In this document: piece after piece, positions 5,293-13,299 of the stretch
How positions within the stretch are numbered: the stretch's first letter is position 1
How the letters are laid out: each line of letters starts with the position of its first letter
From: Microthyrium microscopicum
Lineage: Eukaryota
Reading direction: 5' to 3'
Length of the DNA stretch: 64,000 nucleotides
Assembly: GCA_010405405.1 (NCBI GenBank)
Contig: MU004241.1
Coordinates: forward strand, 1,151,359 to 1,215,358
Made by a program: the position numbers and the translations under genes
Notes under the pieces: model-generated
The model's input: the letters and a program-made list of their open reading frames with translations, nothing else
Told to the model about the DNA's origin: nothing
Database searches by the model: none

Positions 5293-5976
5293 TTACTCTG
5301 GAGGAATGCCTATCTTACGGGTAATCATGTCCATAATGTCGTCGAGTACACGAAGCTTTCTATCTTGAGTAGCGGCTAGAAGCTGATCCATAGGGGAATT
5401 ATAGGCCATCAGTCTATAGACGTGACATTCTTGATGCTGGCCGTGGCGATGAATCTGGCCCATCAATTGGAACTCATCTTGCTTGTTGTACTGTATCTTG
5501 CAGATGATTAACTTAGAAGCGCAAGTGATGTTGAGACCAACGCCACCAGCTTTCAGTGACATAAGCAGAGGAGAGCTGGTACTATCAATTGCGAAGATAT
5601 GGTGAGCTGTTGAACGCTCATACGCAGTCATTCCACCATCGAACTGATTGATTTCCCGGTCAGGCGAGTCGCGGCGAAGAGCTTCTTGGATGAGGAGGAG
5701 AAAGTAACGCGATTTCGAAGCGATGATGACTTTTCGATCCGAAAAGTCTTTCCGAATTTCCTTGTAGGTTGCTAGGCAAATCGCGACACGCGGCGACGCC
5801 AACTGCTCGTCGCTCATTCTAGCGACCTTGGTACCAGATTGAGCAAGCTTGACGGCATCTGTCTCTTCGACATTGTGTCCTTCCTCCTCTTCATCTTCAA
5901 CTTGAGCCTCAACGGGAGCTAGATCGCCAGCAAGTGTCTCATACTTACAGTACTGTTCTTCGTAACACAGCAGCAC
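5293..5976 (-). pseudogene. SNF2-family helicase C-terminal lobe fragment
   Basis: SPRV..KVIIAS, FDGGMTAYER, LMSLKAGGVGLNITCASKLII, QLMGQIHRHGQHQECHVYRL; no ATG start and no recognisable N-lobe upstream on this strand. Confidence 0.7.
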
Positions 5977-7039
5977 GCATTATTAACGCTTTGTCTCGAT
6001 AGCCGGGCTACGAGAGCTTTTGGATATTAACTTCTCAAAGATGGGAACAATGTGGCTTCTTATTCAAATGATACATCTCAACGGCATGGCTATATAATGG
6101 CGCAACCTTATCATGTCACCCAGACGCTACGCTCGGTCATCGAGTGCTTTATTTGCCATATCGGGCGTTCGGACTGGGAATATTTATTAGATACGATGGG
6201 GATTAAAGCACCTTTTGGTTAGCAGCGGTGGTGGCAGCCATCAGAGTTGATGGGAGTACGCCATTCATTTTACCATGCCGATGGGATGATCAAGAGCACC
6301 TGGCATGTGGGATTAATCAGATATCAGTGAGAAAATCTGCTTCAGTTAGCAATGGCCTAAGGAAACCCTGGTATTCGACTTCGGGTTACTATTCTGCGAC
6401 GAACTGCAAGAAAGAGAGCCAATGAATGAAGCGCTCCCATCAACCAAGCCGTCTCCCATCGGCTACGTTCTGTTTTTGACTGATTGATTTCACATGATTA
6501 CATAAAAATATTCTTGAATTGCGACCGCCATAAGGCTCAAAGATTACTCTTTTTATGGGTGCGGTGGTAGTCATCCCGTTTCACGGGAGCGTGTTACTGA
6601 TTTCGTCCACCTGTTGGCATTTTACGATTGACATATCCTCTCCTACACAGGCAACAATCTCGAGAATACGTAGCAGTAGCGAGTTGCTGCTCTAAAGCAT
6701 CTTTTGTAGCTGCCTTAAAGGTCCACGTCTTAAGACATCAGTGTTCTTGACAAATATAGTAAAGCATATTGCGCGCATATTAAATGCTCCACAAGAGCTT
6801 CCGGAGAAAGCAATATTTAACTGTCGTTAGGGATGACATGCATTGCCCGCTCAGACAGTGTATCTACAGTCTAGGTAGGCACTTACTTCCCAAAGCTCTC
6901 AACAGGCCTTGCTAAATTGTTGAGTAGTACCTTTCATTTCTCAAAACCTCATCTCCCTGCCTTTTTCGGCATACACAACGCTCCTCCCTTTTTTTCAATC
7001 AACCCGTTCATTTCCTGCTACATACTACTGGAAGCCAGC

Positions 7040-8342
7040 AGGAGCGAGTGGGATCATAATCGGCTGTGGAGACTCGGCGCGAAATGTTCTCGATTGTCAC
7101 GAGATGGGAATGGGCAAAACAACCATGGCCTACCTAGCAGACTGGCTGGCAAAGGCTCGAGCAGGACGGAGCTGCTTCACTGTGGTTCTGACCACCCGCA
7201 CCCTGATTCCGCAATGGTTCGAAGAGTCGCAAGTATGCTTCAAAGATGTCAGTTCCTATACCCGTGTTACCGTCCCAAACCTAATTGGCTACTCAGGGTG
7301 AGAAGCCACGAGTCTTTATTCTCGAAAATGCGAAGATCACAGCCCTTGAACTGATTAACGGCGACTGGGACTATATGTTGGCCACCTACGAATTTGTAAT
7401 GGCGCAGTACAAGCGCAAACTGAAGTACGAACAGTACTTGAAATTCGCAATGACCAATAGGGACCCCATGGCCCGCAAAGCCTATGCGAAGGTCAACAAA
7501 CTCCCATCCATCCCTCCAGTCCTTCGTCTTCTTCCGGCCTCTATAGAGACTTCAATTTACTATTTCGGCAGCTCATTGTTGACGAAGCGCACAATTTGAA
7601 GAACTGGCGCGGCGTAAAGCATGCCGCCGTCAAGGCCATGTTTTATGCTTCCCCGGAAATGATTACGGGAACGCCACTGCACAACACCTGGACAGATGTA
7701 CCAGGACTCCTGAACCTATTGCCAAAATGAGCCAGTCCAAGGTCCAAAAATAGTATCTGGGACCTTGTTCTAGTGAGCCAGTCACTGAACAAAACCGCCT
7801 TAAGAAATGGCTATGGAAGAGCTGAGCAAGCCGGGAAACTCATGATTATGGTAGTAGAGAATAACAGTATACTCAGACAATGGCTCAAACGAGTAGCTAC
7901 GCGTTTGCAGGTAGGATGCTTAAGGGGAAGCACTGGAAGTAGATCCATAAGCTCCTGGTTCATATGCAATGTTCCTGCTGTGAAACTTCGACAGACTATA
8001 TACAACGGGGATCTATGTCCAAGTGACGAAGAAATTCAATGGCGCACAGAGGACTTACCAATCCTTCTTTCCACGGTGCCTACCAAGGCAAGCACGGTAC
8101 CGCTACCACCTAGCCCATTGACCAACCGCTACTGATATTGAAGAAAGACTTACAAGACGACGAGAATGGTGAGGAAAATGACGACAAAACCCAGGTCTCT
8201 GTATCAAAGAGAGTGCCAAAACCGTCAGGAACTTAGCCCTTCTCGAGTAGATATGATTATCCAAACCTATCATAAAATCCGAGACACCTGGCGCGATGAG
8301 AAGACCATCGTCTTCTCGAACATCTCGCCTTTGCTCACATAG
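7040..8342 (+). pseudogene. Degenerate SNF2-family ATPase (frameshifts and stops)
   Basis: VLDCHEMGMGKTT (motif I), MLATYE, LIVDEAHNLKN (II) and MITGTPLHNTW (III) lie in different frames; SPSRVDMIIQTYHKIRDTWRDEKTIVFS at 8226-8342 is the start of the C-lobe. Confidence 0.8.
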
Positions 8343-9028
8343 GCGAAGAGATCTGCTGTCCCCTTTCAAGACCAGCCGGCTATGCCCGAATGTTCACCTG
8401 TGCTTCCAAAGTCATTCTCTGTGTCGCAAAGTACAAGACAACAACAAGACGAGATTCAAATGGTCACTTATGCCCACTGTTATGCCAGAAATGCATTTTA
8501 TGAAAACAAGATTCGTTTAAACAAGGCCAACGCGCGCTAAAAAGGAAGCCTTGATATCTCTCGTTGCGGGATCCCTGAAACCGAGATGGGAATTATCAAG
8601 TGCTATGAGAAGCAGTGAGATCTCGCGATGTGAAATCTCATCTCTCAATATGTCTAACCACAAGCGGTAGCTTCCATCGTGTTCGCTGGGCCCCATTGTA
8701 ACTAATGTTTATCCTAGTAAGATCTCTATGAATTTCCCATTGTCGTATCATAACAATATTGGGCTATCGCATCTGGTAGATACCTACCTCTTTATATACA
8801 TTTGGGTCGAGAAATAGATATACCGTTTGAAGTTTCTGTAACAAATTGTCGATGTTAGAAATGTACTTTAGAGGGCTGTAAGCCTCTCTAGCACTAAACA
8901 TTCAATGTATTGTTCTCGTTAACTGATACATGCACGTGAGCAGATTTGAAAAACAGTCTTCTTCTAGTACAATTGTTTAAGGTAGAAGGGAAAGGCTAAA
9001 TAGGCAGGTGTAAGTAGCGTTTGTCGTG

Positions 9029-9036
9029 TATATATA
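9029..9036 (+). promoter_or_regulatory. TATA box of U6 gene
   Basis: TATATATA about 30 nt upstream of the inferred U6 +1 (9060). Confidence 0.65.
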
Positions 9037-9059
9037 CATGTGGTTGACAATTTTGTCTT

Positions 9060-9359
9060 GCCGGAAACGGCATTTGGTCAAATTGAAACGATACAGGTTC
9101 GTTTTTATCTGCACCTTTTGTGGTATTGATCTAACCTGAAGTAGAGAAGGTAAAATTTACATTACGTGCACTGCCGACATGCACTGACCCAATTCTTAGA
9201 TTAGCATGGCCCCTGCACTAAGGATGACACGTGAGCTGCCAACTCAATTTCTATTGATTTACCACTAATCTCTGACAGGCACAATCAAAGAGAGTGAGTC
9301 ACAGCATTGCCATGCAAGCGAATGTATAATTAACAAATAAACAGAGCATACAAGTTTTT
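9060..9359 (+). ncRNA. U6: U6 spliceosomal snRNA with four spliceosomal introns
   Basis: Exons 9060-9096, 9145-9149, 9200-9230, 9279-9293 and 9345-9359 splice to GCCGGAAACGGCATTTGGTCAAATTGAAACGATACAG|AGAAG|ATTAGCATGGCCCCTGCACTAAGGATGACAC|GCACAATCAAAGAGA|AGCATACAAGTTTTT (103 nt), with 5' hairpin, ACAGAGA box, AGC triad and ISL; box A TGGTCAAATTG at 9075-9085. Confidence 0.95.
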
Positions 9360-10273
9360 CAAGCTTATGATTTTTTTTGGACGTCATCAGGCCTGATTTT
9401 TGGCTGCTGAGGTTTGCTTTCACGTATATATAGAGTACTGACAGGTCATGCCTGTAGGCTCCATGTTCAATTCAGCTAGGGGGCAATTTTATTTTAGGCT
9501 CTACTTAATTGATTATAGATCATTCAGTTAAGAAATGAATGAGGACTTCGATAGTGATTTTATTAACTATATTCTAGAAAGTATTGTACTCTATATAAAG
9601 TATATTTCTTCTACCTGCCGTTATTGTACTCTTTTACCTCGAATTGAACCGTGAACCCCTAATGACTTCTAACCTGTATTATATCTAATTAGTACCTCTT
9701 AGAAGGATTATATGGATTTTGCATCGACCAGAACAATACATTTCATTAGCTATTGTAACAATAGTTTATACGGAGTAAGCTTATTTCTAGCGTATTCATT
9801 AGAAATCATGGCATGGCAAAAAGCAGCACCTTATGAGTTACGACAGCTGTGGACTGGCAAAATAATAGGCGCGCTCCCATCAGCTACCTTGGCTCCCATC
9901 CGTTACATTCTATTCAGACGGTAGAAGCCAAAATTTTGCGAGCGAGCGAGATGATGTCCAAATGACTCATGAGGTTTTTACAGTCTGGCTATATTTTGGC
10001 AAAAATGGCAGGAGCAGACCAGCTTCCTCCTCGTTGTGAGAATGCCTCCCATGTGGTTCTGAATCTTGTTCTAACTTCACTCCATGACTTAGGAGGAGGT
10101 TGCAGACGAACCTGGATCTATGGAAAAGGATACTGCGATACCCACGACCGACAGATACCATTGATAACTCTGGATGTGCCAGCTATTTACAGGCGCCGTG
10201 GTTTTACCTTTGAGATTTCGCAGAGCAATGCTTCAATTGCGCTCGATAATCTCTGTCCATTCCAAGCGCTTCC

Positions 10274-10853
10274 TTAACCCACTGTGCCATTTCCCCCGGA
10301 TCTGAAATCCCACATATCGATGAAAACTCTTGATGTGCCACTCCTTGTCAAGATTCCAACTCCAACGACTTGGTTTAGCCAAGCATAAGTCCCATTCGTT
10401 GCGGTCTCAAATTTCGCGCGCAAGACCGAATGTCCGTCAGTCAGTGTCGGGCCTTCTGTTTGAATATAAACATAAGTGCCATCGTCTGTGAGGAGATTGT
10501 AGCGAGCATCCGGTCGGACAATTCCATTCACATCTGTCAGGCGCCAATCCGCGCCAAGATTGAGTATTTTGCCTAAAATCATCAGTATGGTTTGAAAAAG
10601 TCTGAAAACTTGGCCTTGATGAACAATGTCATGGGTATAACTTACCAGAGAACTTAGGGCCCTTGAATGTACCACCAATGATTGGTATAACAACTCGTTC
10701 TTGTCCAACCGGTATTGCTCCCAGTGAGAACCTATCCCCTAATTCTACATCTGCTCTGTATAGCAGTGTTACTGACGGAGGAATAAGAGGGGGAAAAGTG
10801 ACATTCTGCGCCACGGCTAGGCTGATCAAGCCTAAAAGGCTTAAAGAAAACAT
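10274..10853 (-). CDS. Secreted DUF3237/UPF0311-family protein
   Basis: Signal peptide MFSLSLLGLISLAVA; RVVIPIIGGTFKGP, GADW, PDARYNLLTDDG, FETATNGTYAWLN; intron 10573-10645 restores the frame (168 aa). Confidence 0.82.
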
Positions 10854-11508
10854 TACTTTGATGAATTGTGTGTGCTTGGCTTCAATTGTGAAGACAAGAA
10901 GCGAAGAATAGCCTTTTAAAGGTCGATGTAGTTGGAATCTTGAAAGCAAATATAAATTAAAATAGATGAATACTACCGCATTAGTTTTAAAGTTACTGGA
11001 GCCGCTAAATCGATCATGAAAATGCCGCTATAAAGGGCCGAAGGAGGAGAAATATTCAGGGCTCCGTCCCAATTCAGCCTGTGATCACGCATCCCTTGGG
11101 GTTTACTTCTGAAGTGCGATGATTTACGTCCAGGTACATGAGTATGAGTTCTTTCGAGCTCAAGGACACTTACGCGTCCATAATATTGCAAAACTGCACG
11201 CACAAGATCTACGTCAAAACGTCATTTACTCTATTTATTCCTAATAGGAGCCCTTTCCACCAGGAAGAGTTATAAACGAAAAAAAAACATGACCTTCATT
11301 AGTATTAGCTCATCGTGGAGAAACCCGGCAAGCTTGTTAACTCACGATCAGGTATATAGGATAGCATTTTATCACGAACAACAACGATTTTGCAAAAGAT
11401 TCATTAAATCTGGTCTTGAGCCGACGCCTTCTCTCTATATACCGCCCTCTATTACATTATTAACAATTATTGGAATGTTTCTGTGGAGGTGTCCATTGAC
11501 TGAAACAT

Positions 11509-13299
11509 TTAAAGTGCAAACAGACCGCCAACAGCCATGGCTAAGAAACCAACAACTTGGTATTGCGTTCTTATGCTTGCAGCCGCGTTGGTGGTTTGTT
11601 GAGCCGGAACTGACGAAGCACTGATGTTGCCACCCGGAACACCAATAGTGGATAGAGTTGGTGTTGGGTATGATCCAGTTCCATTGCCATTGATTGGGTA
11701 AGGAGGTGCGGTAGCAGCTGGAGCGTTTGGCCCGGGAACGATGCCGACAACGGATGATCCACCGACTACAGCAGAGGTGAACCCGACCTGTGGAACGACT
11801 ACGGTTGTCTGAATGGATGTGGTGTGGAACGAAGAAGGAATGGTCTGTCCGGCGGAAGTTCCGGTGGTGTAGGTGCATGGCACGGTAATTGTTTGGTCAA
11901 TAGAGACTGTCGTGACACCAACTGCCGGCACACCACCGGTTGGACCTGCGGTGGCGGTTACTGTGGGTGCGATGGTTACACTGGAGGGGCAGTTGGTGAT
12001 GATGCCTGGGTTGCTGGGGATGAAGGCGGCGCAGATGCCAACGAGATAAGAGACGGCAGCTTGAATCTCACTTTGCGACTGGCCCCAAGCTGAGAGACAT
12101 TGGTAGACGGAGGAAATCAGCTCAGTATCTTTGCAAAAACAGTCGGGGTTGCTGATATCGGAGCAAGAACTGCTGAACATCCAGGTGGAGAAACACTTGG
12201 GAAGAACATCTGGGCAAGATGTACCTGGAAGACTGCCGGAGCCGGATCCCTTGCTGGGTGAAGCTGGAGTAGCAGATTTGGAAGGAGCGAAGCTAGAGAC
12301 AACTTCTACCGAGGATGATGGGCTTGAACCGCCAGCAGTTACGGACGGGCTTGAGCCACCTACGGGAATAGATGGGCTAGAGCCACCAACAGGAGCAGAA
12401 GGGCTTGAGCCACCTACAGGCATAGAGTATGCTGGGGAAGAATAGACTGGGGCAGACGGGGACTGCTCGGGGACAGAGACTGCTGGGGCAGATGAAGGTG
12501 AGCCTCCTGCTACAGAGGACTCGTAAGAACCACCTGGGCTGGATGGGTGAGCTGAGCCTTTTGGTGGCAAGGACTTTGGAGGTGAAGCTGGTGCAGAATA
12601 CGAAGGAGGCCCAGCTGGAGAGGACGACTTCGGTGGTGAAGCTGGAGCTGAGGTAGTGCCAGACTTTGGTGGAGCTGGGCCATTGCAGTCAAAGTCAACA
12701 CCATAGACATCGAAACCACAGTCACCAGATTCGTGGCTAGCGAGCTGGAAGCCGACGCTCTTAGCTCCACCACATTGTGTGTTGGGTACAGATGTCCCTG
12801 AACTACTGCAGGAGTGTACGAAGGAACAGTCTGATCCGTCTTCCATGGTGAACTGGAATTCGATGTCGACATCCCGGTCTGTAGTAACGTGGAACGTCGA
12901 GGGAGAGAAGGCATCGGAGGAGCCACAAGAGAAGCTAGGTCCTTTGGAAGAGCCTGCACTTCCAGATATGCATTTGCCGCTGAATTGGCTTCCAGTACGC
13001 TTTGAAAGATCTCGTTTTCCTTGCTTGTCGTTGCATGTGAAGCCCGAGAACGAAAATGAACTGTAAGAGCTGAAGGAGCCAGTTGCAAGACTGTCGAAGG
13101 ACCATCCACTCTTTTCTTGATCGGAACACTTGTTGTCGGTATTGGCAGGACAGCTGAAGGAGCCAGAATCTAACCAGTTAAGAAACTAAAAACAGTCAGA
13201 TTAAATTGTGCTTCGCGGAAGAAAGGAAGAACTTACCCCTCCAGCTTGACCTTGGCCAGCCAGCAAGGCTGAAAGGAATAATGTGTGTGAAGCTCGCAT
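11509..13299 (-). CDS. GPI-anchored CFEM-domain cell-wall protein, Mad1 adhesin-like
   Basis: Signal exon, intron 13186-13236, Cys-rich N-domain (SCPANTDNKC), S/P-rich spacer with PVGGSSPS repeats, CFEM-type CPDVLPKC..CSDISNPDCFC..C..GIC, hydrophobic C-terminus. Confidence 0.82.

What the first reader, a model, noticed from the sequence alone, without database searches (positions are those of the whole stretch)
9060..9359. U6 snRNA gene interrupted by four spliceosomal introns, with a 5-nt micro-exon in the catalytic core
Seen: introns 9097-9144 (GTTCGT..CTAAC..TAG, 48 nt), 9150-9199 (GTAAAA..CTGAC..TAG, 50), 9231-9278 (GTGAGC..CTAAT..CAG, 48) and 9294-9344 (GTGAGT..TTAAC..CAG, 51). Intron 1 cuts the ACAG|AGA box and intron 2 lies just before the AGC triad, leaving exon AGAAG. 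Established: introns in fungal U6 are known (one in S. pombe, four in Rhodotorula hasegawae), so the phenomenon is not new, but four is at the high end. Inference: the spliceosome must splice its own catalytic RNA four times from a Pol III transcript, a possible autoregulatory loop. Clustering at the active site fits the reverse-splicing model of intron gain.
Basis: partly seen in the sequence, partly recalled or inferred. Interest (0 to 1): 0.85.

Follow-up and report, generated by a model that had tools for sequence, protein, structure and literature searches.

The report
Fungal U6 gene with four introns
This is a real fungal gene for U6, the catalytic RNA of the splicing machine, itself broken by four short introns that must be spliced out; that is a known fungal oddity, here at the top of the known range.

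Summary
Window 9060-9359 (+) carries five U6 pieces (37, 5, 31, 15 and 15 nt) separated by four GT..AG introns of 48, 50, 48 and 51 nt. Each intron has a branch-site motif 10-12 nt from its 3' end.

- **Independent recovery:** a blind spliced alignment of an intronless metagenomic U6 (Rfam 92.2 bits) found the same four introns. Exon identity was 91 of 99, and the score was 128 against at most 27 in 20 shuffles.
- **RNA evidence:** a contig from a run that behaves as RNA (X5) joins exons 3, 4 and 5 exactly as predicted. Introns 1 and 2, which flank the 5-nt exon AGAAG, have no RNA evidence.
- **Promoter:** the layout is Pol III-like, with a TATA at -31, a T5 then a T8 run, and a B-box-like motif 105 nt downstream.
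- **Open puzzles:** intron 1 holds a T5 run, and the RNA contig runs past three T runs.
- **Rarity:** of 120 related metagenomic U6 genes, 0 have more than two introns.

Verdict: a new member of a known kind, of modest interest. Autoregulation is untested.

The parts
9029..9036 (+). TATA box (TATATATA), 31 nt upstream of the 5' stem-loop
   Evidence: Read. One search places it at -31/-29. Of 68 intronless relatives with 60 nt of upstream sequence, 21 have their nearest TATAWA at -31 to -27, and 32 have no strict TATAWA.
9060..9096 (+). U6 exon 1: 5' stem-loop (GCCG-GAAA-CGGC) through ..GATACAG, the first half of the ACAGAGA box. The true 5' end lies about 9055-9060.
   Evidence: Rfam U6 model positions 1-42 align to 9055-9096 (15.3 bits); spliced alignment.
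9097..9144 (+). Intron 1, 48 nt: GTTCGT..CTAAC (9131-9135)..TAG. Holds a T5 run at 9102-9106.
   Evidence: No RNA evidence.
9145..9149 (+). U6 exon 2: the 5-nt micro-exon AGAAG, which completes ACAGAGA
   Evidence: No RNA evidence.
9150..9199 (+). Intron 2, 50 nt: GTAAAA..CTGAC (9184-9188)..TAG. The 5' splice site is weak, with no G at +5.
   Evidence: No RNA evidence.
9200..9230 (+). U6 exon 3, 31 nt: AUUAGC (AGC triad) and the internal stem-loop sequence
   Evidence: Rfam U6 29.6 bits, E 1.8e-5; the identical 31-mer occurs in 120 metagenomic U6 genes; present in the X5 RNA contig.
9231..9278 (+). Intron 3, 48 nt: GTGAGC..CTAAT (9265-9269)..CAG
   Evidence: Removed in the X5 contig.
9279..9293 (+). 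U6 exon 4, 15 nt
   Evidence: the 14 letters between the two sides of joint 9231->9345 are window 9280-9293. The G is ambiguous between 9231 and 9279.
9294..9344 (+). Intron 4, 51 nt: GTGAGT..TTAAC (9330-9334)..CAG
   Evidence: Removed in the X5 contig. Loci L071 and L082 have an intron at the same position.
9345..9359 (+). U6 exon 5, 15 nt, ending in a T5 run (9355-9359) that is homologous to the terminator of relatives
9371..9378 (+). T8 run, a likely back-up Pol III terminator 11 nt after the T5
   Evidence: relative L098 has the same T5-then-T8 layout.
9397..9401 (+). A third T5 run downstream
   Evidence: Crossed by the X5 contig.
9465..9473 (+). B-box-like motif GTTCAATTC (fits GTTCRANNC), 105 nt after the T5
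   Evidence: There are only 6 sense-strand matches in the 64-kb window. The same motif lies on the sense strand within 100 nt after the terminator in 27 of 99 relatives.
9345..9499 (+). Stretch covered without a break by the spliced X5 contig. This is a 3' extension at least 140 nt past the U6 body.
   Evidence: record 9: 206 nt, mean word depth 387.4.

Best explanation
This is an expressed U6 snRNA gene of a fungus. The neighbouring genes carry Zn2Cys6 and CFEM domains. Its coding sequence is split into five exons by four ordinary spliceosomal introns of about 50 nt.

A precursor of about 300 nt is transcribed from a TATA box at -31. The polymerase is most likely RNA polymerase III, helped by a B-box-like TFIIIC site about 105 nt downstream and terminating at a T5/T8 pair. 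The spliceosome then removes all four introns and leaves a 103-nt U6 with an intact 5' stem-loop, ACAGAGA box, AGC triad and stem-loop sequence.

Shown here:
- The exon-intron structure.
- Conservation of every core position.
- Removal of introns 3 and 4 in RNA.

Inferred:
- Removal of introns 1 and 2.
- Stepwise splicing around the micro-exon. Five nucleotides cannot hold a 3' splice site complex and a 5' splice site complex at once.
- Pol III as the polymerase.
- That this is the working U6 source of the cell.

The confidence given is for the identity as a real, spliced, intron-containing U6 gene. For Pol III as the polymerase I would give about 0.65.
For: - Exact anatomy.
- Blind spliced alignment to an intronless U6 from L018 recovers the same four introns. 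Identity is 91 of 99 and the score is 128, against at most 27 in 20 shuffles. L018 itself scores 92.2 bits on Rfam U6 against a gathering score of 44.
- Against 41 unique intronless relatives, the joined exons depart from columns at least 95% conserved at only 2 of 72. One is an alignment edge and one lies in the 5' stem-loop. 31 of the 72 columns are identical by the way the relatives were found.
- In run X5, a 206-nt contig at depth 387 joins 9231 to 9345 with the 14 letters of exon 4 between, so both introns 3 and 4 are out.
- X5 behaves as RNA. It has depth in only 11 of 30 bins; three contigs on the neighbouring genes have depths 4.9, 10.1 and 205.6 (the U6 contig 387.4). It has zero mismatches on four long pieces. 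It also shows a second 50-nt skip in the neighbouring gene. DNA run X1 carries the introns.
- Promoter motifs: TATA at -31/-29 and a B-box-like motif at 9465.
- The introns have the usual size of this genome. 9 of 16 strict intron-like matches in the window are 40-59 nt, against about 3.3 of 22 in shuffles.
Against: - There is no RNA evidence for introns 1 and 2 or for inclusion of the micro-exon. No X5 contig was laid on 9004-9170. A spliced exon 1-2-3 contig would share a long identical stretch with human U6 (recalled), and the tool drops human-like contigs.
- Intron 2 has a weak 5' splice site (GTAAAA).
- Intron 1 holds a T5 run, a potential Pol III terminator. 0 of 32 introns in related U6 genes have T5 or longer.
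- The spliced contig runs through T5, T8 and T5 to 9499. That is unexpected for Pol III products.
- The unspliced locus fails the Rfam gathering score, and the joined sequence could not be given to cmscan.
- The whole genome is not held, so an intronless U6 elsewhere is not excluded.
Confidence: 0.88

Rival explanations
1. The gene is transcribed by RNA polymerase II, alone or beside Pol III. The spliced, 3'-extended RNA seen in X5 would then be the normal precursor or a by-product. That would make the T runs irrelevant.
For: - The spliced contig crosses T5 (9355-9359), T8 (9371-9378) and T5 (9397-9401) and reaches 9499.
- A T5 run sits inside intron 1, while 0 of 32 relatives' U6 introns have one.
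- From general knowledge, a TATA box serves both polymerases, and spliceosomal introns are normally removed from Pol II transcripts.
Against: - The TATA lies at the U6-typical -31.
- A B-box-like motif lies downstream, as in 27 of 99 relatives.
- The T5 sits at the position homologous to relatives' terminators, with a T8 back-up, as in L098.
- Contig depth is a mean over the whole contig, so the extended form may be rare. The run's library type is not on record, so the extended form may be over-represented if it selects long or polyadenylated RNA.
- 7 of 95 relatives also end in T5, and 85 of 95 have T6 or longer, so T5 may simply be leaky.
Confidence: 0.12
2. This is a decaying or redundant U6 copy. 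The working U6 comes from another locus, perhaps intronless, and this locus is only spliced incidentally.
For: The genome could not be searched. Introns 1 and 2 are unverified, intron 2 has a weak 5' splice site, and a T5 sits in intron 1. The review notes that species may have several U6 paralogs of which only some carry introns.
Against: - No conserved core position is lost.
- Promoter and terminator motifs are kept.
- The spliced RNA contig has depth 387, against 205.6, 10.1 and 4.9 for three contigs on the neighbouring genes. Contig depth is a poor measure of expression.
- All four interruptions keep GT..AG and a branch site at 10-12 nt.
- Rfam at E up to 0.5 finds no second U6 in the 64-kb window.
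Confidence: 0.08
3. Chance resemblance: short U6-like pieces in unrelated DNA.
For: Unspliced Rfam scores are below the gathering score.
Against: Spliced alignment scores 128, against at most 27 in 20 shuffles and 16 on the reverse strand. Identity is 91 of 99 over the full length. The RNA junctions fall exactly where predicted.
Confidence: 0.01

Closest known systems
Schizosaccharomyces pombe U6 gene with one mRNA-type intron (Tani and Ohshima 1989, as described in review PMC5855946, section 14, read)
   Same: A U6 gene interrupted by a spliceosomal intron next to the catalytic AGC triad and removed by the spliceosome.
   Different: S. pombe has one intron; this gene has four, at other positions. 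From recall, not seen in a call: the S. pombe intron carries the B box. Here the B-box-like motif lies downstream of the gene. Five of 32 introns in metagenomic relatives do carry such a motif.
Multi-intron fungal U6 genes: Rhodotorula hasegawae (Tani and Ohshima 1991; four introns is recalled, only the title was seen) and the survey of Canzler, Stadler and Hertel 2016 (not held; known here only through the review)
   Same: [quoted passage not shown] Insertion sites concentrate near the ACAGA box and the stem-loop. Up to four introns occur in one gene.
   Different: I could not compare positions with those papers. Among 120 metagenomic relatives, none shares the positions of introns 2 and 3, the two calls at intron 1's position look spurious, and 2 (L071, L082) share intron 4's position. 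The 5-nt exon and the T5 run inside an intron may or may not have been described; I could not check.
Saccharomyces cerevisiae SNR6 promoter layout (TATA at -30, internal A block, B block downstream of the terminator; recalled textbook knowledge)
   Same: TATA at -31 and a B-box-like motif about 105 nt after the T run.
   Different: SNR6 has no intron. The function of the motifs here is untested.
Trichoderma reesei U6 gene, whose promoter 'with 1st intron' is used to express guide RNAs (table in PMC9518982, passages seen)
   Same: A filamentous-ascomycete U6 gene with introns, used as a Pol III unit.
   Different: Its intron number and positions were not seen.

Membership tests
U6 spliceosomal RNA (Rfam RF00026) | 5' stem-loop followed by a conserved single-stranded stretch | tested here: met
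   model positions 1-42 align to 9055-9096; the fold gives a 4-bp stem with a GAAA loop.
U6 spliceosomal RNA (Rfam RF00026) | ACAGAGA box | tested here: met
   present once, at position 34 of the joined exons, and absent from the unspliced DNA.
U6 spliceosomal RNA (Rfam RF00026) | AGC triad and internal stem-loop sequence | tested here: met
   9197-9230 matches the model consensus from position 46 almost letter for letter; the same 31-mer occurs in 120 U6 genes.
U6 spliceosomal RNA (Rfam RF00026) | Score at or above the family's gathering score (44 bits) | not testable with these tools
   The unspliced DNA gives 29.6 and 15.3 bits for two pieces and nothing at gathering. cmscan takes only the window or loci, so the joined RNA could not be scored. 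The intronless relative L018, 91 of 99 identical, scores 92.2 bits.
U6 spliceosomal RNA (Rfam RF00026) | 3' end in a U run | tested here: met
   T5 at 9355-9359, at the position of relatives' T runs.
Fungal U6 genes with mRNA-type introns | Interruptions with GT..AG ends and a branch-site motif | tested here: met
   4 of 4.
Fungal U6 genes with mRNA-type introns | Introns removed from the RNA at the predicted junctions | tested here: inconclusive
   introns 3 and 4 are removed in one X5 contig. Nothing was laid on introns 1 and 2 or on the micro-exon.
Fungal U6 genes with mRNA-type introns | Pol III transcription unit (TATA, B box, T-run terminator) | tested here: inconclusive
   The motifs are present. 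But intron 1 holds a T5 run, and the RNA contig crosses three T runs.

The most novel reading that the evidence does not exclude
This is the only U6 gene of the fungus, so every spliceosome depends on four prior splicing events. One of them rebuilds the ACAGAGA box from a 5-nt exon. The T5 run in intron 1, together with the read-through past T5/T8/T5, would mean one of two things. Either output is set by leaky Pol III termination (attenuation inside an intron), or the intron-laden gene has moved partly or wholly to Pol II transcription.
Probability: 0.1. Interest if true: 0.6.

Novelty: new member of a known kind. Interest (0 to 1): 0.3.

Why it matters
U6 is the catalytic RNA of the spliceosome. 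Introns inside it are the classic argument that excised introns can reverse-splice into nearby RNA and return to the genome.

This locus adds a case at the top of the published range. It has four introns, two of them inside the ACAGAGA-to-AGC core, leaving a 5-nt exon.

It also supplies something the 2018 review says is lacking: RNA evidence that such predicted introns are really removed, here for two of the four.

It is a handy natural substrate for two questions. How is a 5-nt exon spliced? How does a Pol III gene tolerate a T5 run inside an intron? It does not change the picture of U6 biology.

Tried and rejected
- **Whole-genome search for other U6 copies:** no genome is held, so copy number is open.
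- **Weak hint only on copy number:** in DNA run X1 the depth over 9004-9504 equals that of the single 7050-nt contig spanning the locus. So no second contig with the exon-3 sequence was laid. An intronless copy could have been dropped as human-like.
- **RNA holders:** no listed holder is on record as RNA. X5 is 'RNA?' by guess, and I call it RNA from its behaviour.
- **Cover of exon 1, intron 1, exon 2 and intron 2 in X5:** none was laid. This is no evidence either way.
- **X6/X7 (organism C):** they match only 9199-9231. This is the conserved U6 core of another organism and says nothing about this gene.
- **cmscan of the joined sequence:** not possible with these tools.
- **Papers not held:** Canzler 2016 and Takahashi 1993. 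Intron positions in published species were therefore not compared.
- **Literature searches:** the listings gave no title or abstract on U6 genes with more than four introns or with a micro-exon. Most listed papers were not opened, and the held library lacks the key papers.
- **Earlier notes of this scan:** nothing bearing on this locus.
- **tRNA scan:** none found, so the repeat at 9856-9913 is not a tRNA.
- **Position-35 'introns' in L040 and L049(-), 226-233 nt:** on inspection these are U6-like copies whose 5' part is replaced by GC-rich sequence. I count them as spurious.
- **Why the X5 contig stops at 9201:** no explanation tried fits exactly. It stays unexplained.

Full report
**What is there.** Window 9060-9359 (+) reads as five U6 pieces separated by four short interruptions. 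The exons are 37, 5, 31, 15 and 15 nt, 103 nt in all.

| Intron | Coordinates | Length | 5' splice site | 3' end |
|---|---|---|---|---|
| 1 | 9097-9144 | 48 nt | GTTCGT | TAG |
| 2 | 9150-9199 | 50 nt | GTAAAA | TAG |
| 3 | 9231-9278 | 48 nt | GTGAGC | CAG |
| 4 | 9294-9344 | 51 nt | GTGAGT | CAG |

Each intron has a YTRAY branch motif with its A 10-12 nt from the 3' splice site. The ACAGAGA box does not exist in the genomic stretch and appears once after joining. Intron 1 cuts ACAG|AGA. Intron 2 lies between AGAAG and AUUAGC, three bases before the AGC triad.

**Rfam on the unspliced DNA.** The whole window gives no hit at gathering scores. With permissive settings two U6 pieces appear. One is 9197-9258 at 29.6 bits and E 1.8e-5; its real match is exon 3, and the rest runs into intron 3. 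The other is 9055-9096 at 15.3 bits, covering model positions 1-42. No second U6 appears in the 64 kb at E up to 0.5.

**Independent recovery of the introns.** The 31-base exon 3 was used as an exact pattern on metagenome contigs. Most instances are plain, intronless U6 genes. One of them, L018, scores 92.2 bits on Rfam U6.

I wrote a spliced aligner whose introns need only GT..AG ends and a length of 30-400 nt. I aligned the 100-nt L018 U6 to window 8900-9500. It returned exactly the four introns above, after query positions 35, 40, 71 and 86. Exon identity was 91 of 99. The score was 128, against 8-27 for 20 shuffles and 16 for the reverse complement.

I then aligned the joined exons with 41 unique intronless relatives (67 instances). 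The joined exons depart from columns at least 95% conserved at 2 of 72. One is an alignment edge and one lies in the 5' stem-loop. 31 of those columns are identical by the way the relatives were selected. There is no sign of decay.

**RNA evidence.** Seven public runs hold part of window 7000-12000. Four are DNA runs of the probable source, and one (X5) is guessed to be RNA. Laid on 7000-12000, X5 has depth in 11 of 30 bins. Three contigs on the neighbouring genes have depths 4.9, 10.1 and 205.6, and the U6 contig has 387.4. Four long pieces have zero mismatches. X5 also has a 50-nt skip in the neighbouring gene. This is the behaviour of a transcriptome of the same species.

One X5 contig (206 nt, depth 387.4) covers 9201-9231 and then 14 letters that equal window 9280-9293. 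It then covers 9345-9499. So exons 3, 4 and 5 are joined exactly as predicted, and both introns 3 and 4 are gone. DNA run X1 carries the introns in one 7050-nt contig.

Nothing from X5 was laid on 9004-9170. The tool silently drops contigs that resemble human DNA, and a spliced exon 1-2-3 contig would share a long identical stretch with human U6 (recalled). Introns 1 and 2 and the micro-exon therefore remain inferred from conservation and splice signals.

**Transcription signals.**
- **TATA box:** TATATATA sits at 9029-9036, at -31 from the stem-loop. 21 of 68 intronless relatives have their nearest TATAWA at -31 to -27, and 32 have no strict match.
- **Terminator:** the gene ends in T5 (9355-9359), followed by T8 (9371-9378) and another T5 (9397-9401). 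Among 95 relatives with a T run, the first run is T4 in 3, T5 in 7 and T6 or longer in 85, with T7 the commonest at 42. L098 has the same T5-then-T8 layout.
- **B box:** a B-box-like GTTCAATTC lies at 9465-9473, 105 nt after the T5. The window has only 6 sense-strand matches to GTTCRANNC. In 99 relatives with enough flank, 27 of 29 sense hits fall within 100 nt after the terminator, against 7 of 13 antisense hits.

This layout resembles the yeast SNR6 promoter (recalled).

**Two observations that do not fit a simple Pol III picture.**
- Intron 1 holds a T5 run (9102-9106). 0 of 32 introns of at most 120 nt in related U6 genes have T5 or longer; 4 longer, doubtful calls were dropped. By comparison, 2 of 11 intron-like 40-70-nt matches in this window do.
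- The spliced RNA contig crosses all three downstream T runs.

The most economical reading is that T5 is a leaky terminator in this lineage. Extended read-through forms may also be over-represented in the run, whose library type is not on record. Pol II transcription is a live rival.

**How unusual is it?** Among the 120 metagenomic instances, the aligner calls no intron in 88, one in 28, two in 4 and three or more in 0. Four instances are truncated or score low. The search required an intact exon 3, so introns inside it could not be seen.

Intron calls cluster after query positions 21-24 (13 of 36) and 72-77 (8 of 36). Position 86, that of intron 4, is shared by L071 and L082. Positions 40 and 71 are shared by none. 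The two calls at position 35 are spurious.

The review PMC5855946 (section 14, read) summarises Canzler et al. 2016. [quoted passage not shown] A table in PMC9518982 mentions the T. reesei U6 promoter 'with 1st intron'. Canzler 2016 itself and the early Rhodotorula papers are not held. That R. hasegawae has four U6 introns is recalled.

**Verdict.** This is a genuine U6 gene with four spliceosomal introns, two of them confirmed at the RNA level. The kind is known, and this gene sits at the top of the known range. Its noteworthy details are a 5-nt exon in the catalytic core, a T5 run inside an intron, and a 3'-extended spliced RNA. The autoregulation and reverse-splicing ideas are published hypotheses that this locus neither tests nor contradicts.

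Noticed in passing
window 9856-9913: A short dispersed repeat of about 45-55 nt. At least seven other contigs of DNA run X1 match it at roughly 83-89% identity, and summed depth there is 792 against 109.5 elsewhere. X5 and X7 contigs match it too. It lies just upstream of where the neighbouring gene's RNA contig starts (9882). It is not a tRNA.
   Followed up: partly
window 10034-10085: The X5 contig skips 50 nt in the neighbouring gene. The ends are reported as TG..CA, with 2 letters fitting either side. From the sequence, none of the three possible registers gives GT..AG; a shift of +1 gives GT..AT. A CTAAC lies inside. This may be a non-canonical 3' splice site or an alignment quirk, at depth 4.9 only.
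   Followed up: partly
L015, L049, L040 (metagenome loci): U6-like copies whose first 30 nt or so are replaced by a GC-rich hairpin-like sequence. In L015 and L049 they lie about 300 nt from a normal U6 copy, in inverted orientation. These may be variant or chimeric U6 paralogs of some GC-rich fungus.
   Followed up: partly
L033, L060, L077, L091, L110 (metagenome loci): Introns of related U6 genes that carry a B-box-like GTTCRANNC motif near their 5' end. This resembles the S. pombe arrangement as I recall it.
   Followed up: no
window 9199-9231 versus runs X6/X7: A 2699-nt contig of another, GC-rich organism matches only the U6 core, with 1 mismatch, and is unlike the window immediately upstream. 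The letters shown before the match do not read like the ACAGAGAAG that precedes it in intronless U6 genes. That U6 may therefore also be interrupted near the position of intron 2, but it is unclear whether the tool shows the adjacent letters.
   Followed up: no
window 5456-5545 (-): A weak snoU36a-like C/D box hit, 26.6 bits and E 0.43. It lies inside an ORF with a helicase C-terminal domain. Probably chance.
   Followed up: no
window 9201: The spliced X5 contig ends exactly 31 letters left of the joint, at 9201 rather than at 9197-9198. A spliced-versus-unspliced fork at intron 2 would be expected at 9197-9198. The cause is unknown. It could hint at a second U6 variant in the RNA or be a property of the contig builder.
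   Followed up: no
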